A stretch of 38,193 nt of DNA from a virus (IMGVR_UViG_3300048586_000134:89703-127895), one strand, 5' to 3'; positions 3,367 through 18,057 are shown, numbered from the stretch's first letter. The notes: a model not told the origin generated them from the sequence alone. Program-made: numbers and translations.

Positions 3367-3446
3367 GGTCAGCCTCCTGTGGTCAGGAATCCAATCTGTA
3401 AAATTGGCGCTCTTTAGCAATGCAAGTTCGATTCTTGTCTGGCCCA
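3366..3446 (+). tRNA. tRNA-Tyr(GTA)
   Basis: GGGTCAG/CTGGCCC, GTA 3398-3400, variable arm; atypical D arm. Confidence 0.85.
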
Positions 3447-3447
3447 C

Positions 3448-3543
3448 CGCTGAAAGCCGAGGTCACAGGGTTATCCATTGAGGGTCTTACTCGAAAGAGA
3501 TTACTGTCACGCATCTCCCTACGACGACGACTTGCTGGAAGCG
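3448..3543 (+). ncRNA. Y RNA-like #1
   Basis: AGC[C]GA pairs with TTGCT; 8 nt then GGTTATC; upper stem GTCacAGGG/CCCTacGAC; T-tract follows. Confidence 0.8.
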
Positions 3544-3571
3544 TTTTTCTGTTATCATGGGGGTGGTTACC

Positions 3572-3715
3572 ATGTTGGAGGTGTTACTTGCCGTTAATCT
3601 GGTCTTGTTGATCAGACTCTATATCGGCCTAATAAGACACGAGAAAAAGACCGCCGAAATGACGGAGAAGATCGATGCGTTGGTGTACAGCGTTGCGAAT
3701 CTTCTGAACAAGTAA
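3572..3715 (+). CDS. Small membrane protein (47 aa)
   Basis: MLEVLLAVNLVLLIRLYIG...; below ORF-track cutoff. Confidence 0.55.
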   Translation: MLEVLLAVNLVLLIRLYIGLIRHEKKTAEMTEKIDALVYSVANLLNK

Positions 3716-3727
3716 AAGGAGAGGAAG

Positions 3728-4339
3728 ATGACATTCGCGATTGATCAACTCTTTACGACGTGGTGGGAGTTTTTTGGGGTCATAACGGGCATTCTGAGCG
3801 TGGCGTTCCTGCTACCGACGAAACACCCTCGACTTCAATACCTGAATTGGCCTGCGGGTGTCATGACAGCGGCAATCTACACGTACATCTTCACCGAATG
3901 GGAGTTGTACGGTAACGCCGCATTACAAGTCTATTTCGTGCTCGTTTGTCTGGTTGGTGCGTGGACATGGAGAGGGCAGTTGCGGGGTCTCGTCAGTGAC
4001 GTTCCCGAAATTCCCATCACGACCTGTCCGTGGTCTGAAGTCTGGAAAGCAGGACTCTTTGCTCTGGCTATCTCGATTCCGATCATCGGCGTACTTACCC
4101 TGACAAATGACGCGCATCCAATTCCAGATGGTGCGATGGTTGCTCTGTCAGCCGCCGCAATCTGGCTTCAACTCAAGAAATACGTTCAGTCGTGGTTCTT
4201 CTGGATCGCGGTTGATTGTATTGCCATTCCGCTACACGCCTCCCAAGGTTTAGGCGCAACCGCAGCACTCTATGCTATTTACATGGCAATGTGCTTCGTT
4301 GGTTACAGACAGTGGGCGAAAGAAGCGGCAAATGGCTAA
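3728..4339 (+). CDS. pnuC: Nicotinamide riboside transporter PnuC
   Basis: Polytopic membrane protein with LNWPAG, YGNAALQVYF, WFFWIAVD motifs; next to nadR. Confidence 0.9.
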   Translation: MTFAIDQLFTTWWEFFGVITGILSVAFLLPTKHPRLQYLNWPAGVMTAAIYTYIFTEWELYGNAALQVYFVLVCLVGAWTWRGQLRGLVSDVPEIPITTCPWSEVWKAGLFALAISIPIIGVLTLTNDAHPIPDGAMVALSAAAIWLQLKKYVQSWFFWIAVDCIAIPLHASQGLGATAALYAIYMAMCFVGYRQWAKEAANG

Positions 4340-4829
4340 CATTATTCTCTTAAGAGGAACCCCGCTAAGTGGGAAAACGACCTTTGCTCAGAAAGCTGTG
4401 CTTGAGAGCAACGGTACATTAAAACTGGTCTCGAAGGACGCCTTAAGGCATATGTGTGACACCGATAATCGATTTGGTAACACACAGGCAAAAGAATACA
4501 CCGAACTTCGAGACCAGCTAATCTCCTTCTGGACTAAGCGCTTCTATAATGTGATCGTAGATGAGACCTTTGCGCGATTCGAAGATATTTACGAGGTTCG
4601 TAAGAAATTCATCTTTGACTCGCCTTGGAATATGTGCACCATTTACGACATGCCGCTCCTGTCACTAGACGAGCTAATTGACCGTGATCGTGAACGGGCA
4701 GAGCGCATTGGGCGTCGAATCGGTGCCGAAGAGTTAGCCGAGTATCATCGGCTCATTACGGAGTGGCCGACGAGGAAGTATCCTTCGTGGGAAAACCAAC
4801 GCCGCTGGGAGGAGGAGAAACATGTTTAA
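4332..4829 (+). CDS. P-loop kinase, T4 Pnk kinase-domain-like (AAA_33)
   Basis: IILLRGTPLSGKTT, VSKDALR, VIVDET; start set at ATG 4332. Confidence 0.75.
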   Translation: MANIILLRGTPLSGKTTFAQKAVLESNGTLKLVSKDALRHMCDTDNRFGNTQAKEYTELRDQLISFWTKRFYNVIVDETFARFEDIYEVRKKFIFDSPWNMCTIYDMPLLSLDELIDRDRERAERIGRRIGAEELAEYHRLITEWPTRKYPSWENQRRWEEEKHV

Positions 4830-5877
4830 GCATGGGATTGTTGCAGGGAAATTCTGGCCGCTGCACAAGGGACATGACGCCCTCATTCGTACAGCCTTGC
4901 GGCAGTGCGAACGCGTCACCGTCTTTGTGGTTTGGCTTGGCGATCAGGAACCAAGTGGTTTGACGCGTCAGGCATGGGTGCAAGCTGCCTATCCGCAAGC
5001 AGATGTACGACTTGTGGTGGATATCTGTACTGATGATAACCATCCAGACTCGTCAGTGACGTGGGCTGAGTACACGAAGGACATTCTCGAAGGCGATCTT
5101 CCCGATGCGGTCTTCTCGTCTGAGCCGTACGGAACATGGTGGGCTGCAAATATGGGAGCGCAGCACGTTCAGGTCAACCTGAATCGTAGCTACTTCCCGA
5201 TTAGTGGAACCATGATACGAAGTGATCCATATAAGTACTTTCACTACATCCATCCGATTGCGCGTGCGTACTACAACAAGCGCGTTCTCGTGGTAGGTGC
5301 TGAATCGACAGGCAAGACAACGCTATGCGCTGATCTTGCAATCGACTACTCTACGGTCTTTGTGCCTGAGTATGGTCGTATCTATGTCGAGAACAAGGCA
5401 TCTCGCGATGGTGTTGATGAGCGTGCCTGTTTTGGCGAAATCGTGAATCGACAGCTTCGTATGGAAGAAGAATATCTGAAAGACGCAAATCGCGTCCTTT
5501 TCTGCGACACTGATCTTTTCACAACGTCTCTCTGGTGGGAGCGTTGGATGGGAACGGGCTATGACCGTCTCTGGAATACGATTCAGACGATGGGGATCGA
5601 GCATGCGCATAAATATGATCTTGTACTCGTGATGGATCATGAAGGAACCGAGTGGGTTGATGACGGATTCCGCGATCAGCGTGATACGCGTGCGTGGTTT
5701 ACGGAGAACCTTGAAAACTTCTTCCGTTCGGTTGTTGTAAAAGAGTTCTACCCGACAGATGAGCGTCCACTCAATGTGGTCAAGCTGTCTGGCTCATGGG
5801 AAGAGCGTCACAAGACGGCGATTGCCGCTGTGAACGAGATTTTCGGTCAAACGGAGGCATTGCTTCCAAGGAGTTAA
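4822..5877 (+). CDS. nadR: NadR-like bifunctional NMN adenylyltransferase / ribosylnicotinamide kinase
   Basis: GKFWPLHKGH, ISGTMIR, GAESTGKTT, EYGR, FCDTD. Confidence 0.92.
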   Translation: MFKHGIVAGKFWPLHKGHDALIRTALRQCERVTVFVVWLGDQEPSGLTRQAWVQAAYPQADVRLVVDICTDDNHPDSSVTWAEYTKDILEGDLPDAVFSSEPYGTWWAANMGAQHVQVNLNRSYFPISGTMIRSDPYKYFHYIHPIARAYYNKRVLVVGAESTGKTTLCADLAIDYSTVFVPEYGRIYVENKASRDGVDERACFGEIVNRQLRMEEEYLKDANRVLFCDTDLFTTSLWWERWMGTGYDRLWNTIQTMGIEHAHKYDLVLVMDHEGTEWVDDGFRDQRDTRAWFTENLENFFRSVVVKEFYPTDERPLNVVKLSGSWEERHKTAIAAVNEIFGQTEALLPRS

Positions 5878-5881
5878 CACT

Positions 5882-5941
5882 ATGTATATCGGCATTGGTA
5901 CACTACTCATCATTATCATTCTGCTCATTCTTCTTTTCTAG
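5882..5941 (+). CDS. 19-aa hydrophobic micropeptide
   Basis: MYIGIGTLLIIIILLILLF; AAGGAG RBS 8 nt upstream. Confidence 0.55.
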   Translation: MYIGIGTLLIIIILLILLF

Positions 5942-5961
5942 GAGGCTTCGCGCCTCCATCT

Positions 5962-6034
5962 GCCGCGTAAGCTATTGTGGAACAGCAGCCGACTTTTAAT
6001 CGGCAGACGGCGGGTTCGATGCCTGCACGCGGTA
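5962..6034 (+). tRNA. tRNA-Lys(TTT)
   Basis: GCCGA-CTTTTAA-TCGGC, TTT 5995-5997. Confidence 0.88.
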
Positions 6035-6048
6035 CAGGGATTTTGCGT

Positions 6049-6375
6049 ATGGTGAACAAGACACGAATACGATCTGAGCTAAAGTCATGGTTTTACACAC
6101 TCAAGAGTCAATGTGCCTGTGTAGACTGTGGAGAAGCGCATCCAGCGTGTCTTGATTTCCATCACCGTAATCCTCGACATAAGGTTATGTCTGTCTCTGA
6201 GATGGTGAACCTGTGTTTTTCAAAGGACGACATTATTACAGAGATTATGAAATGTGATTCGCTGTGTGCGAATTGCCACCGAAAGCGGCATTGGGCCGAA
6301 GGAGGTTATTATGGAAAACGACATTCAACGCGTCGAGGTAGACGTGATCTACGTGCTTCGGAACAACGATGGTGA
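6049..6375 (+). CDS. HNH endonuclease (family A)
   Basis: CVDC...LDFHHR...KCDSLCANCHRKRH; start moved to ATG 6049, after the tRNA. Confidence 0.85.
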   Translation: MVNKTRIRSELKSWFYTLKSQCACVDCGEAHPACLDFHHRNPRHKVMSVSEMVNLCFSKDDIITEIMKCDSLCANCHRKRHWAEGGYYGKRHSTRRGRRDLRASEQRW

Positions 6376-6538
6376 TCTGTTCACGAAGTCAGAGTTGACA
6401 CGGAATACCTTCGTCGGGTATCTTACGGTAGACGCAGCGAGACGAGCGCGTGCGCATGCCAATAAAGTCGGGTATAATCCGCCATTCGAGATTGTACCAA
6501 TCCAAGTTTCGTCACTAGGCTTCACCCAAGAAGTCTAG
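6311..6538 (+). CDS. Hypothetical protein
   Basis: GGAGG RBS, 75 aa. Confidence 0.7.
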   Translation: MENDIQRVEVDVIYVLRNNDGDLFTKSELTRNTFVGYLTVDAARRARAHANKVGYNPPFEIVPIQVSSLGFTQEV

Positions 6539-6539
6539 A

Positions 6540-6577
6540 TGTCGCCAAAATCAAACGTATCGCATATGATAGTATGT
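6540..6577 (+). promoter_or_regulatory. Repeated sigma70-like promoter, copy 1
   Basis: TCGCCA 6542-6547, 17 nt, TATGAT 6565-6570; same motif at 10993 and 16734. Confidence 0.8.
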
Positions 6578-6584
6578 GATACAT

Positions 6585-6655
6585 GCTTCCTTAGCTGAGT
6601 GGCTTAGCAACTGGCTCTTAACCAGTAGAGCGGAGTTCGATCCTCCGAGGGGGCA
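6585..6655 (+). tRNA. tRNA-Lys(CTT)
   Basis: ACTGG-CTCTTAA-CCAGT, CTT 6617-6619. Confidence 0.9.
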
Positions 6656-6659
6656 CTAT

Positions 6660-6734
6660 GGTGGGTGTAGCCTAATGGTAAGGCGAACGGCTGTGAACCG
6701 TGCTATTCGAGTTCGATCCTCGACATTCACCCCA
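6660..6734 (+). tRNA. tRNA-His(GTG)
   Basis: G-1:C73, GTG 6693-6695, encoded CCA. Confidence 0.93.
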
Positions 6735-7172
6735 TATCCGAAGATTGCTCGCTCTCAATGTGAGAGAGGAAAGTCCGCGCAGCGCAGAGTAGGGTGCCAA
6801 GGCTAAGAACCGAGGGCACCAAGGAGAAACACATGACAAACCGACTATCGATGACGCTCTTGATCCGTCTGAACTCCGATTCAGAAATCACCGCTGACCG
6901 CGTTGCGGAACTAGTGGCAGAACGTCTGGCAGAGCTTCCTGACGTAAAGGCCGTCATGACGGTTGATGTGACCGATCTTGGTGACAGTCAGACTAACAGA
7001 AAAGATTCTTGGGTTGACGAAGAGGCTGATGTCCAGTCCGATCCAAGCTGAAAATAGTAGAGAATCCTCCCTGCTGCAAGTTCGACCGTGGTGTGTCACT
7101 CGCACAAGACCACGAAGTAACGCTGAGATAGATGAGCATTGGAACAGAACGCGGCTTACATAAAGGGTATGG
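6735..7172 (+). ncRNA. rnpB: RNase P RNA, bacterial type A-like, lacking P18
   Basis: GAGGAAAGTCC 6766-6776 and ACAGAACGCGGCTTA 7144-7158; P2, P3, P4, P5 (GCAGC/GCTGC), P6 (GAGT/ACTC), P7 and P15-17 all pair. Confidence 0.88.
6833..7051 (+). CDS. Possible 72-aa ORF inside the RNase P RNA S-domain
   Basis: AAGGAG RBS 6 nt before ATG 6833; amphipathic ADRVAELVAERLAELPDV. Confidence 0.5.
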   Translation: MTNRLSMTLLIRLNSDSEITADRVAELVAERLAELPDVKAVMTVDVTDLGDSQTNRKDSWVDEEADVQSDPS

Positions 7173-7255
7173 AAACTTCTTGCTTTCTCGCGGCATTATT
7201 CAAGTGCAAGGACACTTGTTACGACGAATTGTGTGAGATACAAGACGAAATTGAT

Positions 7256-7337
7256 GCAGATATGGCGGAACGGCATACGCGGTAGCTTCAGAAGCTATGA
7301 TCTTGTGATCGTGAGAGTTCGAATCTCTCTATCTGCA
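7256..7337 (+). tRNA. tRNA-Leu(CAG)
   Basis: CAG 7289-7291, long variable arm. Confidence 0.92.
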
Positions 7338-7339
7338 CC

Positions 7340-7490
7340 GAGCATAAGCCGACCTTCAATCGTTATCATCCCCACCAAGGAGAGCCACGACTCTCCACTT
7401 GGGGACGAGGGGTTCGACTCCCCCGTATAGCGACGGTTCGCATGTTGGCAGACATCCAACGTGTGCGGTTTTAGGACTTATTGCTTGCTC
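7340..7490 (+). ncRNA. Y RNA-like #2
   Basis: AAGC[C]GA/TTGCTT; CCTtcAATCG/CGGTTttAGG; CGTTATC; internal T-arm GGGG-TTCGACT-CCCC 7409-7423. Confidence 0.82.
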
Positions 7491-7549
7491 TCTCTTGTCT
7501 AGGAGAGTGCTCGTGGTGGATGTTCGGGGTTGCTTGCGGCTCCGAATGT

Positions 7550-7622
7550 GGGGAATTGGCGCAACGGCAGACGCATTAATTTTAAAAATTAAGAGTTGTG
7601 GGTTCGAATCCCACATTCCCTA
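7550..7622 (+). tRNA. tRNA-Leu(TAA), short variable loop
   Basis: TTAAT-TTTAAAA-ATTAA, TAA 7583-7585, Leu-type D loop. Confidence 0.85.
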
Positions 7623-7638
7623 CTGACTAGGAGGGTGT

Positions 7639-8058
7639 ATGCGAAAATATACAGATGATGATATCATTGTGTATGCAGCAGAGTCCTTCAGTCTTGCGCA
7701 GTTGCTTTCTAAGCTAGGTCTTCGGTCTGCTGGTGGTAACTATGCACATATGAAGAAGCATCTTCAACGCCTTAATGTTGACACATCTCACTGGACTGGA
7801 CAGGCGTGGAGCGCCGACCAACGTCTCAAGGACTGGTCAAAGTTTAAGAAGATGGATTGGTTAAAAAAGCACCTTATCCGTGAGCGAGGACATCGGTGTG
7901 AGAAATGCTTGACAGAGATGTGGTTTGATGATATGATTACGTTAGAAGTTCATCACATTGATGGTGATCGCACTAACAACGTATACGAGAACCTTCAACT
8001 TCTTTGTCCAAATTGTCATTCGTACACCGACAATTGGCGAGGGAAGAATAAAAAATAA
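7639..8058 (+). CDS. HNH endonuclease (family B)
   Basis: CEKC...LEVHHIDGDRTNN...NLQLLCPNCHS. Confidence 0.92.
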   Translation: MRKYTDDDIIVYAAESFSLAQLLSKLGLRSAGGNYAHMKKHLQRLNVDTSHWTGQAWSADQRLKDWSKFKKMDWLKKHLIRERGHRCEKCLTEMWFDDMITLEVHHIDGDRTNNVYENLQLLCPNCHSYTDNWRGKNKK

Positions 8059-8059
8059 T

Positions 8060-8135
8060 GCCGCTATAGCAGAATTGGCATATGCTCAGGGTCTAGACCC
8101 CTGGAAACTTGGAGGTTCAAGTCCTCCTAGCGGCA
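8060..8135 (+). tRNA. tRNA-Leu(TAG), C33, short variable region
   Basis: CAGGG-TCTAGAC-CCCTG, TAG 8094-8096. Confidence 0.82.
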
Positions 8136-8266
8136 CTATCCCGAGTGGGTTTCTCGGGCTGTCAGCGGTTCATAACCGATCTGACGTAACTCGACTGCGT
8201 AGCGGGAGAGTTGGCGCACACAGCTAGCACATCGGTGATCCCATAATCGATGGGTGTGCGCGTTTT

Positions 8267-8345
8267 GCGATTGTGGTGGAACGGCAGACACGCAGCGTTG
8301 AGGACGCTGTTCTTCGGAGTAAGAGTTCGAATCTCTTCAATCGCA
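8267..8345 (+). tRNA. tRNA-Leu(GAG)
   Basis: GAG 8300-8302, small UUCG variable hairpin. Confidence 0.9.
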
Positions 8346-8406
8346 CAAGAGAGTGGGGTCCGTAGCCGTACGAGTCGGCTAACCACTTTAAAACAACGGG
8401 CACCAT

Positions 8407-8479
8407 CGGGAACTAGGGTAACGGTTAGCCTACTTCGTTTGGATCGAAGAGCGTCCGCGTTCGAATCGCGGGTTCCCGA
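8407..8479 (+). tRNA. tRNA-Pro(TGG)
   Basis: C1:G72, A73, TGG 8440-8442. Confidence 0.9.
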
Positions 8480-8482
8480 CTA

Positions 8483-8610
8483 TGATGAGCCGATTGTTTT
8501 CGGTTATCTATTGGAAGACGTGGACGCAGGTGCGATTCCTGCCCTCCCGACCATCGGGAGGTAGCTCAGTAGCAGAGCACGAAAAATTCCGAGGCGTTAC
8601 TTGCTCATCA
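8483..8610 (+). ncRNA. Y RNA-like #3 (YrlA-type, permuted tRNA-Pro-like module)
   Basis: TGATGAGC[C]GA/TTGCTCATCA; GGTTATC; T arm 8526-8542, closed acceptor CCTCCCG-ACCAT-CGGGAGG, D arm TAGCTCAGTAGCAGAGC. Confidence 0.9.
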
Positions 8611-9938: not shown

Positions 9939-10041
9939 CTGGTCTGGATGCAACGACCAGACCGCATGGTGCGCATTTGCTCTCTAGGCAGGAGCAAATA
10001 CCTTTCGTTAGGGTCTTGTGTTGTGAAACACTGTGACCTGT

Positions 10042-10112
10042 TCCCCTTTCTTCTAATGGTAGGAAGACTGACTCTGACTCAGTAAATCGAGGTTCGAATC
10101 CTTGAGGGGGAG
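10042..10112 (+). tRNA. tRNA-Gln(CTG)
   Basis: CTG 10074-10076. Confidence 0.92.
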
Positions 10113-10114
10113 CT

Positions 10115-10248
10115 ATGTAAGCCGACTTGTGTGCGTTATCATCAAATTTTTGATTGTAGGTTCGAATCCTATCATCCTTCGGGATGTGGCCGAATGGCAA
10201 AGGCAGAAATTGGGGAAACCCATCTCGCACCTAACTTATTGCTTACAT
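10115..10248 (+). ncRNA. Y RNA-like #4 (YrlA-type)
   Basis: ATGTAAGC[C]GA/TTGCTTACAT; GTGCG/CGCAC; T arm GTAGG-TTCGAAT-CCTAT, CATCC-TTCG-GGATG, D arm GCC-GAATGGCAAA-GGC. Confidence 0.9.
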
Positions 10249-10736: not shown

Positions 10737-10787
10737 CTGACCGCTGGGTTGGAGTTTCCTCCTCCTTCCTCCGCTCAGCGGTCTCAC

Positions 10788-10862
10788 GGCCCTGTCGTAT
10801 ATTGGATATTATACGCGCCTGTCGAGCGCACGAAGAGGGTTCGATTCCCTTCAGGGTCGCCA
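10788..10862 (+). tRNA. tRNA-Asp(GTC)
   Basis: GTC 10821-10823, G73, encoded CCA. Confidence 0.92.
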
Positions 10863-10983
10863 TACAAGCCGTTTGATGTGGGTTACCAGCATTGAACTTT
10901 TAATTCAAAGAATGCGGGTATCCAATCCCGCCATGCGAAAGCATGTAGCTAAAAACCTTCCCATGTCGCTCTTTGCTTGTGTG
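10863..10983 (+). ncRNA. Y RNA-like #5 (Lys-UUU anticodon-like arm)
   Basis: TACAAGC[C]G/TTGCTTGTG; GATGTGGG/CCCATGTC; TTGAA-CTTTTAA-TTCAA, T-like and GAAA-capped hairpins; T-tract. Confidence 0.85.
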
Positions 10984-11032: not shown

Positions 11033-11105
11033 GGGGGTGACTGGCATGCCGAGCACTACAGGATTGTGGTCCTCGGAAACGCGGGTTCGAATCCCGCCAC
11101 CTCCA
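11033..11105 (+). ncRNA. tmRNA-like tRNA-like domain without mRNA domain
   Basis: GGGGGTG/CACCTCC with G3-U70 and A73, stemless D loop, CCGAG/CTCGG helix closed by a short hairpin, ACGCGGGTTCGAATCCCGCC. Confidence 0.72.
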
Positions 11106-11143
11106 CTGAGCGCTTTGCTCGCGGGTCAAACGAAGGAGGCTGC

Positions 11144-11943: not shown

Positions 11944-12019
11944 GGGCGTAGTAGCTCAATGGGAGAGCACCTGTTTTGCACGCAGGGGGTTGAGGGTTCG
12001 AATCCCTTCTGGTCCACCA
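11944..12019 (+). tRNA. tRNA-Ala(TGC)
   Basis: G3-U70, TGC 11977-11979, CCA; one bulged nt in the acceptor. Confidence 0.87.
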
Positions 12020-12134
12020 AGTAAGCCGATTGGGTAAGCGTTATCTTATTACTTGAAACAATAAACGAGCAAGGTTCGAATCCTGCACTTGGGTTGGTAT
12101 CCCTAATTTCGCTTCCCGCCCTTTGCTTATCTTG
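12020..12134 (+). ncRNA. Y RNA-like #6
   Basis: TAAGC[C]GA/TTGCTTA; GGGtAAGCG/CGCTTCCC; TTATC; TTATT-aCTTGAAAc-AATAA and GGTTCGAATCC T arm. Confidence 0.85.
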
Positions 12135-12155
12135 ACTTTCTTGGAAGGAGGTTGT

Positions 12156-12359
12156 ATGATTGAGAACGACGACCAGCGAGCAATCACAGCGTATTGGGTT
12201 AAGCTGTTTCTAGATCGTGCAAGCACTGCTCAAGAACAGTACAAAGACGATCCAGCGTTTGCCAAAGAACTTATGAATTCGTACACTGGCATGGCGAACA
12301 CACTAGAGGAGGAAGTGATCGACTATGACGAACGAAAAACTCGTCAAATGGGGGATTAG
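12156..12359 (+). CDS. Hypothetical protein
   Basis: AAGGAGG RBS; stop at tRNA-Ala positions 8-10. Confidence 0.72.
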   Translation: MIENDDQRAITAYWVKLFLDRASTAQEQYKDDPAFAKELMNSYTGMANTLEEEVIDYDERKTRQMGD

Positions 12360-12617: not shown

Positions 12618-12689
12618 TGGGCGGTAGTGTAAAGTGCACGCCTCTCCTGAAAGCAGAGGAAGATGGAGGAGCAATACCTCTTCCGCCCA
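12618..12689 (+). tRNA. Atypical tRNA-Phe(GAA)-like element
   Basis: GGGCGG/CCGCCC, CCTCT/AGAGG around CTGAAAG; T loop AGCAATA is non-canonical. Confidence 0.55.
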
Positions 12690-12691
12690 CT

Positions 12692-12858
12692 AACGATAAG
12701 CCGCTTGGGTATGGGTTATCCGCATACATTTTGATGAGTGCTATCAAAAGCTCTCCGAGGAGTCGGAGGTAAAACAATACTACAAAGCCGCAGGAAGGGG
12801 CGCGATTCCTGAGTTCGGTGCACAGCGCAATCTCCCATCCCGCCTTTTGCTTATTGTT
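12692..12858 (+). ncRNA. Y RNA-like #7 (longest)
   Basis: AACGATAAGC[C]G/TTGCTTATTGTT; ATGGG/CCCAT; GGTTATC; internal TTTTGAT/ATCAAAA and CTCCG/CGGAG hairpins. Confidence 0.82.
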
Positions 12859-12884
12859 CCTTTTCTAATTAAAGGGGTCACGAC

Positions 12885-12971: not shown

Positions 12972-13183
12972 TGTATTCTGTTCTGGTCGTGATCGAAAAT
13001 GACGCAGGCGAGCAAGTCCGACAGTACACCCTTGGTGTCTATCAGGAAGAGGCTCGCGATTTTCTTTGTCGGGTAGGAGAAGACTTTGACGCTGGTCGTC
13101 TTCGTTTTGGAAGCGATCAGGAGATTCTTGACTTGTACGAGGGGATCGATTATACTGTACGGGGAATTAGCGCAGATGGTTAG
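12971..13183 (+). CDS. Hypothetical protein
   Basis: GGAGG RBS, GTG start; stop in the tRNA-Val D loop. Confidence 0.7.
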   Translation: MYSVLVVIENDAGEQVRQYTLGVYQEEARDFLCRVGEDFDAGRLRFGSDQEILDLYEGIDYTVRGISADG

Positions 13184-13234
13184 CGCGTCACGTTGACATC
13201 GTGAAGGTCACTGGTTCGAGTCCAGTATTTCCCA
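13161..13234 (+). tRNA. tRNA-Val(GAC)
   Basis: GAC 13195-13197. Confidence 0.93.
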
Positions 13235-13236
13235 CT

Positions 13237-13346
13237 AAGGGCCGAGAGTAATCCGTTATCAGTTACCAGGGCACAGCCCATTCAATGCGGACCAGACGAA
13301 CCGCAACCCTTTCGCGAGGGATTAACGGATACTGCCCCTTGCCCTT
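13237..13346 (+). ncRNA. Y RNA-like #8
   Basis: AAGGGC[C]GA/TTGCCCTT; AGTaATCCGTT/AACGGATACT; three internal hairpins. Confidence 0.85.
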
Positions 13347-13350
13347 TCAT

Positions 13351-13427
13351 GCACGATAAGTCAACTGGTTGTGGACGCCATGCTGATAACGTGGTTTAGA
13401 GTGGTTCGACTCCACTATCGTGTACCA
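13351..13427 (+). tRNA. tRNA-Ile(GAT)
   Basis: GAT 13385-13387, encoded CCA. Confidence 0.92.
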
Positions 13428-13494
13428 TGAGGCCGAAGTTAATGGGTTATCTTCTGCAACCTTGGAATAAATGCCCATAACGTGTCTTGCCTCA
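13428..13494 (+). ncRNA. Y RNA-like #9 (minimal, 67 nt)
   Basis: TGAGGC[C]GA/TTGCCTCA; GTTaATGGG/CCCATAAC; GGTTATC; T-tract. Confidence 0.85.
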
Positions 13495-13519
13495 GTTTTC
13501 TTTCACGAAAGGGGCGGTG

Positions 13520-13723
13520 ATGAAGATTCGTAAGGATCGCTATGAACATCGTGAAGTTTTGAAAGAAGACGCCAATCGACATAATAATAGAATGGCGCAA
13601 CATCCACAAGTCGGTCGTCAGATTGACGAAGAAGCGTTTCAGCGAGAGGAATTACAGGATGAAGACCATGATTATGAAATTTGGCTCAGTGGCGGCAGCG
13701 TTCGCGTTTGCTATTATCAATAA
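13520..13723 (+). CDS. Hypothetical protein
   Basis: AAGGGG RBS, ATG 13520. Confidence 0.6.
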   Translation: MKIRKDRYEHREVLKEDANRHNNRMAQHPQVGRQIDEEAFQREELQDEDHDYEIWLSGGSVRVCYYQ

Positions 13724-13742
13724 CATCCGCTAAGGCGGAAAT

Positions 13743-13819
13743 GCCTGAGTAGCTCAGTTGGTCAGAGCGATGCACTCGTAACGCATAGGTCGCGGGTTCG
13801 AATCCCGCCTTTGGCTCCA
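13743..13819 (+). tRNA. tRNA-Thr(CGT)
   Basis: CGT 13777-13779, encoded CCA. Confidence 0.93.
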
Positions 13820-13820
13820 T

Positions 13821-13892
13821 GCTCCCTTCGCCAAGCGGAAAGGCATCGGGTTTACATTCCGACATGCGGCGGTTCGATTCCGTCAGGGAGCA
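13821..13892 (+). tRNA. tRNA-Val(TAC)
   Basis: TAC 13853-13855. Confidence 0.9.
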
Positions 13893-13904
13893 CTGAGGAG
13901 GATT

Positions 13905-14141
13905 GTGATGAAGGCGCATAAAGTTGATGAATTCACAATTCTCGGTCGTAACTTTTACGGTAGACGCTTACGTTGTCCAAAATGCGGACATTGGGACGTA
14001 CATTTCCATCCCAATAACGATTATTTCTTCGTCTGTAAGAAGAGGAAGAAATACAAGTACTACAATGGGTGTGGTTATCTAGGTCCGATCCATGAGTTTC
14101 GGGGTGAAGTCAAGCGAAACGGAAAATGGTTCAAATTGTAG
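13905..14141 (+). CDS. Small Cys-containing hypothetical protein
   Basis: CPKC...C...C, GAGGAGG RBS. Confidence 0.7.
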   Translation: MMKAHKVDEFTILGRNFYGRRLRCPKCGHWDVHFHPNNDYFFVCKKRKKYKYYNGCGYLGPIHEFRGEVKRNGKWFKL

Positions 14142-14168
14142 CGAGAGGAGTACGCAGGATGGTGAGTT

Positions 14169-14264
14169 ATGAACACAAACCCAAACGGCGTACGGATCAT
14201 TCGTCGCCCGAACGGTCAAATTATCATTGTTCGTGCCGATGACAAAAAGGAGAAACCAAAATGA
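14169..14264 (+). CDS. 31-aa hypothetical protein
   Basis: ATG 14169, ATGA overlap with next ORF. Confidence 0.45.
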   Translation: MNTNPNGVRIIRRPNGQIIIVRADDKKEKPK

Positions 14265-14518
14265 GAGCAATCTGGTATTCGTGTAGTCAGTGTGGCAACA
14301 CTGGCGCAACGGTTTTTGGTCCGTGCTCGTGTATCTTCGGACAGGCGCTTCGAGCGTCGTGGGGATGCTGTGGCGGATATTGTGGATGTAATCGAGTAAT
14401 CTATCGCACCTACACGTCGAATCGAAGTGATGGTCCGATCCTGCCGAAGCAGCGTCGAGACTATCAGGCTGAGGAAGCAGAGCGAACGAGAAAGTTCATG
14501 GAGAGACACTACGAATAG
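14261..14518 (+). CDS. Cys-rich hypothetical protein
   Basis: AAGGAG RBS, CSQC...CSC...CCGGYCGC. Confidence 0.65.
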   Translation: MRAIWYSCSQCGNTGATVFGPCSCIFGQALRASWGCCGGYCGCNRVIYRTYTSNRSDGPILPKQRRDYQAEEAERTRKFMERHYE

Positions 14519-14528
14519 TGTCTCAAAT

Positions 14529-14600
14529 GCAGCCGTGGTGAAAGGGATATCATAAGAGCGTGCGAAGTTCTTGTTTCGCGTTCGAATCGCGACGGTTGTA
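14529..14600 (+). tRNA. tRNA-Arg(GCG)
   Basis: AGAGC-GTGCGAA-GTTCT, GCG 14562-14564. Confidence 0.82.
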
Positions 14601-14612
14601 CTAGGAGGGAGG

Positions 14613-14840
14613 ATGAAAGTATTCTACGGTCCTGCAAAAGACAAGCCAAAGGATACCTTCTATGCTGAGATAGTTGCTGTACAAGAAGGCAGTAACTACT
14701 ATGGTAAAGCATGGACTGATGTTGAAATCGCCGTCAGGCGGAATCATCACACGGTCCATCACGAAATACTACGTGTTGATCAAGCGCCACCGCAAGCGCT
14801 CGTTCACACAGAGAAGAAACTGCGGAGCATTCCGCTGTAG
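14613..14840 (+). CDS. Hypothetical protein
   Basis: GGAGGGAGG RBS, ATG 14613. Confidence 0.72.
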   Translation: MKVFYGPAKDKPKDTFYAEIVAVQEGSNYYGKAWTDVEIAVRRNHHTVHHEILRVDQAPPQALVHTEKKLRSIPL

Positions 14841-14851
14841 GAGGAGGAGAC

Positions 14852-15124
14852 ATGACGCCGATTGTTGCCGTTCAATGGTTCGAGAGCGAGCGAGGATGGG
14901 GTATTCGCCCTGATGGGTGGTCGATCCACAAGACGACTGCCGACGCTGAAGATTTCATCAATGACTACAAGGCGAAATACCATACGGCTCCGACTGCACC
15001 AGATACGTATTCGTTTCCTGATGCGCAGAAGGTGATCGATTCCAGTGCTGTACCACAGGAGTATCTCGATCAGCTTGAAGAGGCTCCTCATGGAACGTGG
15101 GTTCCTCAGCGTCACATTCAGTGA
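14852..15124 (+). CDS. Hypothetical protein
   Basis: GGAGGAGG RBS; WFESERGWGIRPDG motif. Confidence 0.78.
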   Translation: MTPIVAVQWFESERGWGIRPDGWSIHKTTADAEDFINDYKAKYHTAPTAPDTYSFPDAQKVIDSSAVPQEYLDQLEEAPHGTWVPQRHIQ

Positions 15125-15132
15125 CGCACAAT

Positions 15133-15205
15133 GCTCCTATGGTCTAACGGATAGGGCAAAGGTGTTCTAAGCCTTAAGGTGCGAGTTCGAATCTTGCTAG
15201 GAGCG
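15133..15205 (+). tRNA. tRNA-Arg(TCT)
   Basis: TCT 15166-15168. Confidence 0.92.
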
Positions 15206-15337
15206 CAGGGCGTAAGACAGCCCCGCCGAGTGTACATGTGGCAAATGTCTGGCGAGGATCAGGTCATCTGCTCCCGCGCAACCTGCGTAAGTGGTTGGCT
15301 TTTCGCCCCGACGTTAGGCTGTAAACATCAGGGCTAG

Positions 15338-15409
15338 GCTACGGTGGCTCAACGGTAGAGCAAGACTTTTGTAAAGTCTAGGTTGCGGGTTCGAATCCTG
15401 TTCGTAGCT
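15338..15409 (+). tRNA. tRNA-Thr(TGT)
   Basis: TGT 15370-15372. Confidence 0.92.
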
Positions 15410-15579
15410 CTGAGGCTTAACCTCACAGGATATAGCCACACTTCCTGCCGCAAAGTACACGCGGAAACGTGATTGGATGTCGGTCTCAGGCAATGACCGA
15501 TACGCTTTGATTGCTACAGTATCAACGTGCAACCTGCGACAGTGGTTGGTTGAGGGGGATTAGCTACAGTCCCCTACCC

Positions 15580-15655
15580 GCATCCTTAGTTCATCTGGTA
15601 GAATCTCTCTTTGGTATAGAGAAGGTGCGCGGTTCGAGTCCGCGAGGGTGCTCCA
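15580..15655 (+). tRNA. tRNA-Thr(GGT)
   Basis: GGT 15613-15615, encoded CCA. Confidence 0.92.
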
Positions 15656-15692
15656 CATATCGAGTATTGTCATAAAAAGAAAAGGAGGGACA

Positions 15693-16694
15693 ATGACCGC
15701 AGACCAAAACTATATCAATCACGTCGTTCTCGTCATGGATGCGTCATCCTCGATGAGTCATCTGACGAACCAAGTCGTTCAGGTTGCTGACCAGCAGGCA
15801 GCATATCTGGCACAGCGTTCGAAAGAGCTTGATCAGGAGACACGCATGACGGTATACACTTTTAGTGACAACACGCAATGTGTGTATTATGACAAGGACG
15901 TGTTGCGTCTGCCGTCATTGAAAGGTAAGTATCGAGCTTCTGGTATGACCGCGCTCGTGGATGCCACGCTTCGCGCAGTCGAAGACCTTGAGAAAACCGC
16001 AACACTTTACGGGGATCACGCTTTCCTGATCTACGTTCTCACGGATGGACAGGAGAACGCCAGTGGTTCACATCCGTCCACACTGTCAAATAAGCTGTCT
16101 CGACTGCCCGACAACTGGACTGTGGCCGTGATGGTTCCTGACCAGAACGGTGTCTTCGAAGCCAAGAAGTTTGGTTTCGCGCCAAACAACATTGCTATTT
16201 GGGATACATCGGTCAAGGGTATTGGTGAAGTTTCCGAGACAATCAAGCGTGCCACTGATAATTACATGGTTGCGCGTGCCTCTGGACTTCGCTCTACGCA
16301 GAACATTTTCAGCCTTGATGCGTCGTCATTGCAACAAGCTGCACAAACTGGTGCACTGACTTCCTTGAAAGGTCATCAATACCGTTCTTACCCTGTCGAA
16401 CGCGAAGCGCAAATCTCCGCGTTTGTCGAGTGGAAGACAGGTATTCCGTACAAGATTGGTACTGCTTTCTATCAGCTTTCGAAGCGTGAGACCATTCAAC
16501 CGCAGAAGCAGATTGCTGTTCGTGACCGACGTACCTATGATTTGTACACTGGTCCGAATGCGAGACAGCTTCTCAAGCTGCCTGATTATGAGGTGCGGGT
16601 CTCGCCTATCGATCATCCTGACTACGATATCTTTGTTCAGTCCACAAGTGTGAATCGCAAGTTGGTTCCTGGGACTGAAGTTATTCTCTTGTAA
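15693..16694 (+). CDS. vWA-domain protein with C-terminal extra domain
   Basis: HVVLVMDASSSM (MIDAS DxSxS), GMTALVDA, VLTDGQEN; ATG 15693 behind AAGGAGG. Confidence 0.88.
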   Translation: MTADQNYINHVVLVMDASSSMSHLTNQVVQVADQQAAYLAQRSKELDQETRMTVYTFSDNTQCVYYDKDVLRLPSLKGKYRASGMTALVDATLRAVEDLEKTATLYGDHAFLIYVLTDGQENASGSHPSTLSNKLSRLPDNWTVAVMVPDQNGVFEAKKFGFAPNNIAIWDTSVKGIGEVSETIKRATDNYMVARASGLRSTQNIFSLDASSLQQAAQTGALTSLKGHQYRSYPVEREAQISAFVEWKTGIPYKIGTAFYQLSKRETIQPQKQIAVRDRRTYDLYTGPNARQLLKLPDYEVRVSPIDHPDYDIFVQSTSVNRKLVPGTEVILL

Positions 16695-16700
16695 TGCTAG

Positions 16701-16733
16701 CGAAAGCCTCTCTGCTGGTCGGAGAGGCTTTCG
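16701..16733 (+). terminator. 12-bp inverted repeat after the vWA gene
   Basis: CGAAAGCCTCTC/GAGAGGCTTTCG; no clear U-tract. Confidence 0.5.
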
Positions 16734-16771
16734 TGTCGCCAAAATTCGATCAACCGCATATGATAGTGTGT
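16734..16771 (+). promoter_or_regulatory. Repeated sigma70-like promoter, copy 3
   Basis: TCGCCA 16736-16741, 17 nt, TATGAT 16759-16764. Confidence 0.8.
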
Positions 16772-16773
16772 AA

Positions 16774-16844
16774 GCAGGTAAGATGTTATGGCCGCATGGT
16801 TGCCTTCCAAGCAAATCGTCGGAGTTCGATTCTCCGTACCTGCA
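16774..16844 (+). tRNA. tRNA-Gly(TCC)
   Basis: TCC 16806-16808; weak D arm. Confidence 0.82.
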
Positions 16845-16953
16845 CTGACGTTTGATGGTGCACCATCAAATATCCCTTGTATCACATGGTCCCGCTGTGG
16901 TACAATGGCTTTGTTCGCCTTCACCTACGAACAAGGTAGGGTGAGCGGGACTT

Positions 16954-17026
16954 GAAGGTGTGGTGAAGTGGTAAACACGGTGGTCTGCAAAACCTCCATA
17001 CAGCGGTTCGAATCCGCTCACCTTCT
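16954..17026 (+). tRNA. tRNA-Cys(GCA)
   Basis: GCA 16987-16989, U73. Confidence 0.92.
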
Positions 17027-17163
17027 CTAACGAATGTGTGCGCGAGTCGCGCCGAGGTAAGGTGTAGAACCCCATATCGTATCGTGTCAAGCGACGGCAT
17101 TGTACGTGTGGATAACTTCGTGGCCGATGCCAAGGAAAACGCGCACACGTTCGCTTTCTTTTT

Positions 17164-17206
17164 GCAGGATTAAGCTAGTGGTAAACTGGTACATTGCCAA
17201 TGTACA
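17164..17206 (+). pseudogene. Orphan 5' half of tRNA-Gly(GCC)
   Basis: GCAGGAT, D arm, GTACA-TTGCCAA-TGTAC; no T arm follows. Confidence 0.78.
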
Positions 17207-17252
17207 CCCGCTAGCTTCTACATACAAGCACCATTAACAACGGAGGTTAGAA

Positions 17253-17693
17253 ATGGGCAATACCAATCAGCGCAAGGCTGAAACACTAGGCATGCCTCAC
17301 GGCACGGCCAACAACAAATTGCGAAAGCAACTGCTATTTAAATACGTGCGCAAGGCAGGAGAACACTATTGTTTCAAGTGCGGTGCGGAAATTGAGTCAG
17401 TTGACGATCTTTCCGTTGAACACAAAGAGGCGTGGGAAGGGATATCTGCTGATCTATTTTGGGATTTAGATAACATTGCTTTTAGTCATCTCTCGTGTAA
17501 CAGACCTAACACAAACGGAGGAGCATTCAAGGTAACAAGGAACTTCAACTCTCTCATGAAATGGTGTCCTTCTTGCGAGACCTATGTGGGGAAAGAAGAT
17601 TTCAACAAGAATGCGAATCGCAAAGACGGATTGGCTGATTACTGCAAATCCTGTCACAGAAAAAAGAAAATGCAGCGGTCATTCAAGGGCTAG
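17253..17693 (+). CDS. HNH endonuclease with C-terminal Zn module (family C)
   Basis: CFKC...LSVEHK...LDNIAFSHLSCN; CPSC...CKSC; last codons encode the tRNA-Gly 5' end. Confidence 0.85.
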   Translation: MGNTNQRKAETLGMPHGTANNKLRKQLLFKYVRKAGEHYCFKCGAEIESVDDLSVEHKEAWEGISADLFWDLDNIAFSHLSCNRPNTNGGAFKVTRNFNSLMKWCPSCETYVGKEDFNKNANRKDGLADYCKSCHRKKKMQRSFKG

Positions 17694-17746
17694 GATACAC
17701 GCTTGCCAAGTGTGATATACGGGTTCGAATCCCGTTCGCTGCACCA
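17672..17746 (+). tRNA. tRNA-Gly(GCC)
   Basis: GCAGCGG/TCGCTGC, CTTGCCAA loop region, encoded CCA. Confidence 0.9.
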
Positions 17747-17850
17747 GTCAAGCCGTTGGTAATCGGTTATCAGATTCAATCCTCTGGCAACTAGGGTAGT
17801 TCCTACTGCTTTGCGCGAAAGCGCTTTCCGATTCCGTTTTTGCTCGACTG
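17747..17850 (+). ncRNA. Y RNA-like #10
   Basis: GTCaAGC[C]G/TTGCTcGAC; AATCGG/CCGATT; GGTTATC; GCGC-GAAA-GCGC hairpin. Confidence 0.82.
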
Positions 17851-17854
17851 TCTC

Positions 17855-17927
17855 GCAGATGTAGGCTAAATGGCAGGCCGCTTCTCTCTCAAGGAAGTGC
17901 GTGCGAGTTCGACTCTCGTCATCTGTA
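17855..17927 (+). tRNA. tRNA-Glu(CTC)
   Basis: CTC 17888-17890. Confidence 0.88.
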
Positions 17928-17929
17928 CT

Positions 17930-18057
17930 AATGTTGGTCGATTGTTGTAGGTTATCTTATTATTCCGCCAAAACTTAGGGACAACGGTGTTAGGGCACGC
18001 TTCGGGTATTTCCGATGAGGTTAAGAACTTCACCCTACGACGCAACTTACTAACATT
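17930..18057 (+). ncRNA. Y RNA-like #11
   Basis: AATGTTGGT[C]GA/TTACTAACATT; GTTGTAGG/CCTACGAC; GGTTATC. Confidence 0.82.

What the first reader, a model, noticed from the sequence alone, without database searches (positions are those of the whole stretch)
3446..17930. Every Y RNA-like gene starts 2-4 nt after a tRNA discriminator (tRNA punctuation)
Seen: Tyr 3446/3448, Leu 7337/7340, Pro 8479/8483, Gln 10112/10115, Asp CCA 10862/10863, Ala CCA 12019/12020, Phe-like 12689/12692, Val 13234/13237, Ile CCA 13427/13428, Gly CCA 17746/17747, Glu 17927/17930. The RNase P RNA likewise starts at the tRNA-His CCA. Several copies end in U-tracts or just before another tRNA. Inference: tRNA 3'-end cleavage creates the Y RNA 5' ends, as in mitochondrial punctuation, so Y RNA output is coupled to tRNA maturation.
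Basis: partly seen in the sequence, partly recalled or inferred. Interest (0 to 1): 0.72.

Follow-up and report, generated by a model that had tools for sequence, protein, structure and literature searches.

The report
tRNA-flanked Y RNA genes in phage
In an uncultured 128-kb phage that encodes its own Ro60 protein, all eleven partner "Y RNA" genes sit flush against the 3' end of a tRNA gene, so they are most likely cut out of shared transcripts by the enzymes that trim tRNAs; the same layout recurs in many other large phages, but no RNA data yet show it.

Summary
The window belongs to a complete 127,895-bp phage with terminal repeats. It encodes Ro60 (TROVE plus vWA domains), followed by 40 tRNA genes on one strand.

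A covariance model built here finds exactly 11 Y RNA-like genes in the whole genome. In all 11 the closing (Ro-binding) helix begins 2-4 nt after a tRNA discriminator. Ten of the upstream elements are real tRNAs and one is a degenerate cloverleaf. Chance gives about 1e-25 or less.

- Three copies end 3-4 nt before the next tRNA.
- The other eight are followed by U-rich tails (P about 1e-12).
- The RNase P RNA-like gene pairs its P1 helix with the CCA of tRNA-His.
- No promoter-like site lies inside the upstream tRNAs.

The layout is not peculiar to this phage. I found 49 tRNA-to-Y and 37 Y-to-tRNA junctions with the same geometry in other viral contigs, some of them 435-465-kb phages that encode Ro60. 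One case occurs in the cultured Streptomyces phage Blueeyedbeauty.

The interpretation (tRNA-punctuated processing) is the best reading but rests on DNA alone. No RNA run holds this phage. The cutting enzyme and exact cut site are inferred, and the helix overlaps the encoded CCA in several copies.

This scan had already noted phage Ro60 with Y-like RNA arrays in tRNA operons on other DNA. I rate this a new variant of a known kind, of moderate interest.

The parts
1..989 (+). 3' part of the phage Ro60 gene (583 aa; it starts 762 nt before the window)
   Evidence: Pfam TROVE 1.2e-38 and vWA_Ro60 1.2e-51. The nearest cultured relatives are 'Ro-like RNA binding proteins' of Gordonia, Mycobacterium and Streptomyces phages at 32-43% identity.
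3448..3543 (+). Y RNA-like 1, after tRNA-Tyr (3366-3446, then CC)
   Evidence: R1 49 bits. The helix starts at discriminator +2 and is followed by UUUUU.
6732..7176 (+). RNase P RNA-like gene whose P1 helix starts with the CCA of tRNA-His (6661-6734)
   Evidence: Rfam RNaseP_bact_a, 58.2 bits (cut-off 100), E 3e-17, full-length alignment with the conserved P4 strands.
7339..7490 (+). Y RNA-like 2, after tRNA-Leu(CAG) (7256-7337)
   Evidence: R1 50.5 bits. The helix starts at +2/+3. It has a T-arm-like GGGGUUCGACUCCCC inside.
8483..8610 (+). Y RNA-like 3, after tRNA-Pro(UGG) (8407-8479)
   Evidence: R1 89 bits. Rfam YrlA 34.2 bits, full-length alignment with T arm, acceptor-like hairpin and D arm. 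The helix starts at +4 and is followed by GUUUUUC.
10115..10248 (+). Y RNA-like 4, between tRNA-Gln(CUG) (10042-10112) and tRNA-Asn (10252)
   Evidence: R1 73.8 bits, Rfam YrlA 28.1 bits. Helix at +3; 3 nt to the next tRNA.
10861..10983 (+). Y RNA-like 5, after tRNA-Asp (10788-10862 with CCA)
   Evidence: R1 88.9 bits. The helix includes C75 and A76 of the CCA, and the tail is CUUUUUC.
12018..12134 (+). Y RNA-like 6, after tRNA-Ala (11945-12019 with CCA)
   Evidence: R1 71.4 bits. The helix includes C75 and A76. In related metagenome contigs a 208-nt deletion puts it next to the second tRNA-Ala.
12618..12689 (+). Degenerate tRNA-shaped element ('Phe-like', GAA in the anticodon-like loop)
   Evidence: Cloverleaf fold, -29.2 kcal/mol, z -3.0. 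Not called by ARAGORN or the Rfam tRNA model.
12692..12858 (+). Y RNA-like 7, after the tRNA-shaped element
   Evidence: R1 78.6 bits. Helix at +3; tail CCUUUUC.
13237..13346 (+). Y RNA-like 8, between tRNA-Val(GAC) (13161-13234) and tRNA-Ile(GAU) (13351)
   Evidence: R1 52.5 bits. Helix at +3; 4 nt to the next tRNA.
13428..13494 (+). Y RNA-like 9 (short form), after tRNA-Ile(GAU) (13351-13427 with CCA)
   Evidence: R1 56.4 bits. The helix starts right after the CCA; tail GUUUUCUUUC.
17745..17850 (+). Y RNA-like 10, between tRNA-Gly(GCC) (17672-17746 with CCA) and tRNA-Glu(CUC) (17855)
   Evidence: R1 55.5 bits. The helix includes C75 and A76; 4 nt to the next tRNA.
17930..18057 (+). Y RNA-like 11, after tRNA-Glu(CUC) (17855-17927)
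   Evidence: R1 69.6 bits. Helix at +3; tail UCUUUUAC.

Best explanation
The Ro60 gene is followed by long RNA operons in which tRNAs, eleven Y RNA-like genes and an RNase P RNA-like gene are transcribed together from a few promoters. The Y RNAs have no promoters of their own.

Their 5' ends are made when a host endonuclease of tRNA 3' maturation cuts at or just after the discriminator of the upstream tRNA. The most likely enzyme is RNase Z, followed by CCA addition, because only 11 of the 40 tRNA genes encode CCA and the phage carries no CCA-adding enzyme or RNase Z. The cut leaves a 5'-monophosphate Y RNA with 1-3 unpaired or weakly paired nucleotides before the Ro-binding helix.

Their 3' ends are made in one of two ways. 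Where a tRNA follows 3-4 nt later, RNase P cuts at the 5' end of that tRNA. Otherwise transcription ends, or the RNA is trimmed, at the U-rich tract that follows the helix.

The released RNAs then bind the phage Ro60.

Shown: the geometry, the copy number, the helix covariation, the lack of promoter-like sites, and recurrence in other phages. Inferred: co-transcription, the enzymes, the exact cut sites, the stability of the products and Ro60 binding.
For: 1. All 11 genome-wide copies start at discriminator +2 to +4. The chance is 1e-25 or less.
2. The upstream sequence is the acceptor-stem 3' strand of ten different tRNAs. No sigma-70-like site lies inside them. Promoter-like sites lie instead ahead of tRNA groups, for example TCGCCA-17-TATGAT at 6542, 10995 and 16736, and a site at 13128-13156 just before tRNA-Val.
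3. The 3' ends lie 3-4 nt before a tRNA (3 copies) or have U-rich tails (8 copies, P 1e-12).
4. The RNase P RNA-like gene uses the same design: P1 starts at the CCA of tRNA-His.
5. The elements are real Y RNA-like genes. They lie next to Ro60. Two give full-length sub-threshold YrlA alignments. They share a GCCGA motif and bulged C, as in the Ro-binding site. The helices covary among the 11 paralogues and among 93 homologues from other phages: 88.7% of cells paired against 38-46% when the partner is slid, with 496 double changes.
6. The layout is general. A T-loop-plus-Y-motif scan found 69 viral loci. In these, 49 tRNA-to-Y junctions have the helix starting at +1 to +4 in 40 cases. Thirty-seven Y-to-tRNA junctions, which were not part of the search pattern, have 3-6 spacer nt in 32 cases, mostly ending in AU.
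7. Three complete 435-465-kb phages with such arrays all encode TROVE. Genome-wide in these three, 12 of 25 Y RNAs have a tRNA just upstream and 13 of 25 just downstream.
8. Streptomyces phage Blueeyedbeauty has Y - tRNA-Ile - Y - Y - tRNA-Ser.
9. There is precedent. M. smegmatis YrlA and YrlB are processed from one precursor, and YrlA is an RNase P and CCA-adding substrate (PMC4201824). MHV68 pre-miRNAs are released from tRNA-like RNAs by tRNase Z (PMC3534370).
10. The phage has no Pfam hit to a CCA-adding enzyme or to the RNase Z fold, so host enzymes must act.
Against: There is no transcript evidence of any kind.

In Tyr, Leu, Asp, Ala and Gly the predicted helix pairs position 75 and/or 76 of the tRNA's own 3' triplet. 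In bacteria studied so far an encoded CCA inhibits RNase Z (my knowledge of B. subtilis work). For the four CCA-encoding junctions a different cut, or a trade-off between tRNA and Y RNA, is therefore needed.

The host and its RNase set are unknown.

One of the eleven upstream elements is not a recognisable tRNA.

In other phages about half of the Y RNAs stand in tandem Y-Y arrays or alone. A tRNA is therefore not required for Y RNA biogenesis in general.

Tight packing holds for all RNA genes of this array, so the adjacency may partly reflect compaction.

The closing helix joins strands 70-170 nt apart, which is unusual for an intrinsic terminator hairpin.
Confidence: 0.65

Rival explanations
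1. The Y-like modules work mainly in cis. As structured 3' trailers they load phage Ro60, and through it a 3'-5' exonuclease, onto the pre-tRNA. This helps or checks tRNA 3' maturation, or sets a switch between making the tRNA and making the Y RNA. The free Y RNA is a by-product or short-lived.
For: The helix overlaps positions 75-76 of the tRNA in 5 of 11 copies, and P1 of the RNase P RNA overlaps the CCA of tRNA-His. All 11 copies have a tRNA upstream, but only 3 have one downstream. From my own knowledge, not checked in a paper here: Ro60 acts with exonucleases in RNA 3' maturation and binds single-stranded 3' ends (D. radiodurans Rsr with RNase II and RNase PH).
Against: Most copies keep elaborate interiors, such as T-arm and D-arm mimics, that a mere loading site would not need. 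In other phages the same RNAs stand in tandem arrays without tRNAs. U-rich tails and RNase P-type leaders suggest defined, stable products.
Confidence: 0.15
2. Adjacency is only compaction. The Y RNA ends are set by general nucleases (RNase E, J or III cuts and exonucleolytic trimming up to the stable helix), whatever lies upstream. tRNA processing is not what defines them.
For: All RNA genes in the array are tightly packed: tRNA-to-tRNA gaps are 1-13 nt, and other hairpins start 2 nt after a discriminator. Y-Y tandems without tRNAs exist in Bxz1, Blueeyedbeauty and many viral contigs, so another route to Y ends must exist.
Against: All 11 copies have a tRNA on the 5' side. In contrast, eight have ORFs or long spacers on the 3' side. 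The 1-4 nt window is kept at 40 of 49 junctions in unrelated phages with many different tRNAs. A cut at the tRNA border happens anyway during tRNA maturation, so it would define the Y 5' end by default.
Confidence: 0.15
3. Each Y RNA is a primary transcript from its own promoter lying inside the upstream tRNA gene.
For: None found.
Against: No promoter-like site overlaps any of the upstream tRNAs. The -10 position would fall in GC-rich acceptor strands of ten different tRNAs.
Confidence: 0.03

Closest known systems
Bacterial and phage YrlA-type Y RNAs with Rsr/Ro60 (Chen et al. 2014, PMC4201824; Rfam RF02553; Thermus phage phiLo Yrl1/Yrl2, PMC12135203)
   Same: The RNAs are encoded on the same strand near a Ro60 gene. 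A helix formed by the 5' and 3' ends carries a G-N-C-G-A motif and a bulged C. Several copies have a tRNA-like interior. In M. smegmatis they are processed from a precursor, and YrlA is a substrate for RNase P and CCA addition.
   Different: There are eleven paralogues instead of 1-3, spread over 15 kb of a tRNA array rather than within 4 kb of Ro60. Every copy abuts a tRNA 3' end. All score below the Rfam cut-off (best 34 bits against 69). [quoted passage not shown]
tRNA punctuation of mitochondrial polycistronic transcripts (RNase P and RNase Z/ELAC2 cuts at tRNA borders; from my own knowledge)
   Same: Genes abut tRNAs with 0-4 nt between them. Cuts that mature the tRNAs would also create the ends of the neighbouring RNAs.
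   Different: Here the released products are small Ro60-binding RNAs and an RNase P RNA in a phage. Only the 5' side is always a tRNA; most 3' ends are U-rich tails. No cleavage has been shown.
tRNA-linked small RNAs released by tRNase Z or RNase P: MHV68 tRNA-pre-miRNA units (PMC3534370), plant tRNA-snoRNA genes, MALAT1-mascRNA, and the stable RNAs in the T4 tRNA cluster (the last three from my own knowledge)
   Same: A structured small RNA lies directly 3' of a tRNA or tRNA-like element. It uses the tRNA 3' endonuclease instead of its own promoter or other processing signals. The MHV68 and T4 cases are also viral.
   Different: The cargo class differs (Y RNA). The hosts are bacterial and the tRNAs are apparently functional. 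Up to eleven units occur per genome, with tRNA on both sides in many phages.

Membership tests
YrlA / bacterial Y RNA (Rfam RF02553) | Score at or above the Rfam gathering threshold (69 bits) | tested here: not met
   The best hits are 34.2 bits (8486-8610) and 28.1 bits (10130-10234). The other nine copies give no hit at E <= 1.
YrlA / bacterial Y RNA (Rfam RF02553) | Encoded near a Ro60/TROVE gene and on the same strand | tested here: met
   Ro60 ends at window position 989. The first copy starts at 3448 and the last ends at 18057, all on the + strand. Only the first copy lies within the 4 kb used by Chen et al.
YrlA / bacterial Y RNA (Rfam RF02553) | Helix formed by the 5' and 3' ends that carries the Ro-binding motif (GNCGAA-like 5' strand, bulged C) | tested here: met
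   G[CU]CG[AUC] is present in 11 of 11 copies, with the pairs AGC/GCU, then a bulged C, then G-U and A-U. Outer and inner helices covary. The sixth position, A, is kept in only 1 of 11.
YrlA / bacterial Y RNA (Rfam RF02553) | tRNA-like interior (T arm, acceptor-like hairpin, D arm) | tested here: inconclusive
   It is clear in the Pro and Gln copies from the Rfam alignment. T-arm-like motifs are seen in the Leu and Ala copies. It is absent from the short Tyr and Ile copies.
YrlA / bacterial Y RNA (Rfam RF02553) | Bound by Ro60 in vivo or in vitro | not testable with these tools
   This needs RIP or EMSA with the phage Ro60.
tRNA-punctuated polycistronic processing | Genes directly abut tRNAs (0 to a few nt) | tested here: met
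   On the 5' side 11 of 11 copies are at +2 to +4. On the 3' side 3 of 11 are 3-4 nt from a tRNA.
tRNA-punctuated polycistronic processing | One transcript spans the tRNA and its neighbour | tested here: inconclusive
   There are no promoter-like sites inside the upstream tRNAs and no room for one. There are no RNA data.
tRNA-punctuated polycistronic processing | RNase Z and RNase P cuts create the mature ends of the neighbour | not testable with these tools
   This needs end mapping or in vitro cleavage.

The most novel reading that the evidence does not exclude
The tRNA-Y junction is a designed either/or switch and a quality-control device. Because the Ro-binding helix borrows positions 75-76 of the tRNA, folding of the Y module hides the tRNA 3' end. 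Phage Ro60 bound there decides whether the precursor yields a finished tRNA, a Y RNP, or is handed to an exonuclease. Phage tRNA supply would then be governed by Ro60. This would be a first concrete cellular substrate class for a viral Ro60, and a general rule for the tRNA-Y-tRNA arrays of huge phages.
Probability: 0.1. Interest if true: 0.8.

Novelty: new variant of a known kind. Interest (0 to 1): 0.55.

Why it matters
How bacterial and phage Y RNAs get their ends is largely unknown, as is why phages carry Ro60.

A layout in which every Y RNA is bracketed by tRNA processing sites gives a simple, testable route of biogenesis. It would tie the output of Ro60's partner RNAs to the phage tRNA operons.

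It also explains how a phage can afford eleven Y RNA paralogues without eleven promoters.

The recurrence of tRNA-Y-tRNA units in dozens of uncultured large phages, and in a cultured Streptomyces phage, means the idea can be tested in the laboratory. It also suggests that Y RNAs are under-annotated: one appears to be annotated as a 'tRNA-His' in a GenBank record.

I found no paper that describes this arrangement.

Tried and rejected
1. RNA evidence. The look-up of sequencing runs listed no RNA holder. Read laying on four DNA metagenome runs gave only contigs of relatives. It was useful for structural variants, not for RNA ends.
2. Close relatives. megablast of the array against 50,697 phage records found no match. 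The search for related loci with the Ro60 protein in viral contigs found no relative.
3. The Rfam gathering search finds only tRNAs. The Y RNA, RNase P and tmRNA-like hits appear only below threshold.
4. RNAduplex over wide downstream windows paired several 5' strands with spurious partners. I redid it with 3' windows anchored on the UUGCU motif.
5. The extra YrlA-like hit at genome 52529-52630 was rejected. It lies inside a minus-strand ORF, lacks the motif and is not found by R1.
6. Origin of each Y RNA by duplication of its neighbouring tRNA was rejected. The upstream tRNA ranks 5th to 40th of 40 in similarity to the Y interior.
7. A phage-encoded CCA-adding enzyme or RNase Z was sought. 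Neither gave a Pfam hit.
8. Two reviews on bacterial Y RNAs (PMC10870794, PMC6047535) and the supplements of Chen et al. 2014 are not held. A search for the T4 stable-RNA literature found nothing.
9. Complex prediction, structure prediction and the large protein searches were not used. They would not bear on the junction question.

Full report
**What the window is.** The window is the last 38 kb of a complete 127,895-bp viral record with direct terminal repeats. ARAGORN finds 40 tRNA genes, all on the + strand and all inside the window.

Just upstream of the array lies a 583-aa Ro60 homologue with TROVE and Ro60-type vWA domains. Its closest cultured relatives are the 'Ro-like RNA binding proteins' of Gordonia, Mycobacterium and Streptomyces phages, at 32-43% identity. 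The DNA has no near match among 50,697 phage records.

**The Y RNA-like family.** A short motif, G[CU]CG-N(6-14)-GUUA[UC]C, occurs ten times on the + strand of the array, and an eleventh variant lies at 12700.

Each copy has a 3' partner strand ending in UUGCU-like sequence. The two ends form an outer helix of variable sequence. Next come the pairs AGC/GCU, a bulged C, and G-U and A-U pairs. Last comes an inner helix closed by the G of GUUAUC. This is the design of the Ro-binding site described for Y RNAs and YrlA (PMC4201824).

Two copies give full-length but sub-threshold alignments to Rfam YrlA. In the Pro copy these include the T arm, the acceptor-like hairpin and the D arm.

The helices covary among the eleven paralogues. 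They also covary among 93 distinct homologues from other phages: 88.7% of cells are paired against 38-46% when the partner is slid, with 496 double changes. That alignment was fitted to the model, so the counts lean towards the structure.

A covariance model built from the eleven copies (R1) finds exactly these eleven in the whole genome and nothing else. One weak extra YrlA hit elsewhere is inside an ORF and lacks the motif.

**The junctions.** The first paired nucleotide of the closing helix lies at these offsets:
- discriminator +2 for Tyr, Leu(CAG), Asp, Ala and Gly(GCC)
- +3 for Gln(CUG), the Phe-like element, Val(GAC) and Glu(CUC)
- +4 for Pro(UGG) and Ile(GAU)

The chance of eleven hits in such a slot is about 1e-25 even within the array.

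Ten upstream elements are bona fide tRNAs of ten different isoacceptors. The eleventh (12618-12689) folds as a cloverleaf (z -3.0), but no tRNA tool calls it.

At the 3' side, three copies stop 3-4 nt before the next tRNA. The other eight are followed by 5-6 U in 8 nt (42 of 64, P 1e-12).

The RNase P RNA-like gene is a type A alignment of 58 bits, below the cut-off, with both P4 strands. It begins with the CCA of tRNA-His, which forms the first three pairs of P1.

**What the junctions imply.** The 12 nt before each Y start are the GC-rich 3' strand of an acceptor stem. None of the 32 promoter-like sites in the first 20 kb lies inside an upstream tRNA. Good sites sit ahead of groups of RNA genes instead: a thrice-repeated TCGCCA-17-TATGAT at 6542, 10995 and 16736, and a site at 13128 just before tRNA-Val. 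Separate transcription of the Y RNAs is therefore very unlikely.

The Y interiors are no more similar to their upstream tRNA than to the other 39; the ranks run from 5 to 40. The junctions are thus not relics of local duplication, and the spacing looks selected.

The phage has no Pfam match to a CCA-adding enzyme or to the RNase Z fold. Only 11 of the 40 tRNA genes encode CCA, so host 3' processing and CCA addition must act on most phage tRNAs anyway. A cut at or just after the discriminator would at the same stroke create the Y RNA 5' end. RNase P at the next tRNA, or the U-rich tract, would define the 3' end.

**Generality.** A scan of viral contigs for a tRNA T-loop followed at the right distance by the Y motif gave 69 loci. 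R1 found 93 distinct full-length Y RNAs in them.
- Forty-nine have a tRNA ending right before them. The helix starts at +1 to +4 in 40 of these, and 47 have C at position 74.
- Thirty-seven have a tRNA starting after them, with 3-6 spacer nucleotides in 32 cases, usually ending in AU. This 3' relation was not part of the search pattern.

Three complete 435-465-kb phages with such arrays all encode a TROVE protein. Genome-wide in those three, 12 of 25 Y RNAs have a tRNA just upstream and 13 of 25 just downstream. The units tRNA-Leu(CAG)-Y-tRNA-Ile and tRNA-Pro-Y-tRNA-Lys/Gly are conserved among them.

The cultured Streptomyces phage Blueeyedbeauty has Y - tRNA-Ile - Y - Y - tRNA-Ser beside its Ro gene. 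Mycobacteriophage Bxz1 has three tandem Y motifs upstream of Ro and no tRNA link.

tRNA punctuation is therefore common but not obligatory for phage Y RNAs. This phage is the extreme case, with 11 of 11.

**Limits and complications.** No RNA data exist for this phage, and the metagenome contigs laid on the array are DNA only. They do show that relatives lack the HNH gene at 17253-17693. They also lack the small ORF between Y6 and the second tRNA-Ala, which would make that unit tRNA-Y-tRNA.

In five copies the predicted helix pairs position 75 and/or 76 of the tRNA's own 3' triplet. The P1 helix of the RNase P RNA does the same with the CCA of tRNA-His. One molecule therefore cannot keep both an encoded CCA end and the full helix. 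Either the cut is at the discriminator and CCA is re-added, or the outer pairs are dispensable, or there is a real trade-off.

Other spacers in the array also form stable hairpins that start 2 nt after a discriminator and end 4 nt before the next tRNA, for example 10739-10783 with z -4.5. tRNA-to-tRNA gaps are 1-13 nt. Dense packing is thus a property of the whole array.

**Comparison with what is known.** Phage Ro60 with nearby Y RNA-like genes is known from mycobacteriophages and Thermus phage phiLo (PMC4201824, PMC12135203). M. smegmatis YrlA and YrlB are processed from one precursor, and YrlA is cut by RNase P and receives CCA. Release of a small RNA by the tRNA 3' endonuclease is known for MHV68 (PMC3534370). 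From my own knowledge it is also known for plant tRNA-snoRNA genes and MALAT1-mascRNA, and mitochondrial punctuation is the classic case.

What is new here is the cargo (Y RNAs and an RNase P RNA), the number of units, and their recurrence across large phages. I found no paper describing this. [quoted passage not shown]

Earlier notes of this scan had already recorded phage Ro60 with Y-like RNAs in tRNA operons on other genomes. The RNA family and its Ro60 link are therefore not new to the scan. The punctuation geometry and its generality are what this report adds.

**Verdict.** I rate it a new variant of a known kind, with interest 0.55.

Noticed in passing
window, all 40 tRNA genes (1772-36228): Position 74 is C in 40 of 40 tRNA genes. 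Position 75 is C or U in 36 of 40, and position 76 is A or G in 39 of 40. Only 11 genes encode a full CCA. C74 is also present at 47 of 49 tRNA-to-Y junctions in other phages. One possible reason is pairing of C74 and Y75 with the GG of the RNase P RNA L15 loop, or a rule of the host 3' processing. This was not tested.
   Followed up: partly
window 6732-7176: This is a phage RNase P RNA-like gene of type A: 58 bits (cut-off 100), with both P4 strands conserved and a 159-nt insertion where the model has 4 nt. Its P1 helix is built with the CCA of tRNA-His.
   Followed up: partly
window 11033-11108: A tmRNA-like hit of only 76 nt scores 46 bits against a cut-off of 47. It spans the whole model with the mRNA-like part missing, and lies 10 nt after a TCGCCA-17-TATGAT promoter-like site.
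   Followed up: no
window 15206-15337 and 15410-15579: The two spacers after tRNA-Arg(UCU) and tRNA-Thr(UGU) are related (69% column identity). They share the block GCAACCUGCG..AGUGGUUGG, which suggests a second small-RNA family in the array.
   Followed up: partly
window 8136-8266, 9939-10041, 10737-10787, 16845-16953: Non-Y spacers between tRNAs fold into stable hairpins (z -2.0 to -4.5). They begin 2-4 nt after the discriminator and end about 4 nt before the next tRNA.
   Followed up: partly
window 17211-17739 and 12141-12350: Contigs of relatives in two metagenome runs skip the HNH gene (17253-17693), with 18 other letters in its place. They also skip the small ORF after Y6, with 8 letters in its place. 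The protein genes inside the array therefore look like later insertions.
   Followed up: no
window 3728-5877: A PnuC-type NMN transporter, an AAA_33/zeta-toxin-like kinase and an AAA_28 (NadR-like) gene sit between Y RNA 1 and tRNA-Lys. This is an NAD-salvage island inside the RNA array.
   Followed up: no
L011 18905-19060 (Streptomyces phage Blueeyedbeauty, record about 66,996-67,151): The feature annotated tRNA-His (gene 99) overlaps a Y RNA-like element. It has a GGUCGGA...GGUUAUC 5' strand and a long closing helix (R1 hit, E 0.015). This is probably a mis-annotated Y RNA.
   Followed up: partly
window 24958-34782: A single ORF of 3,274 aa lies downstream of the array. It was not analysed.
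   Followed up: no
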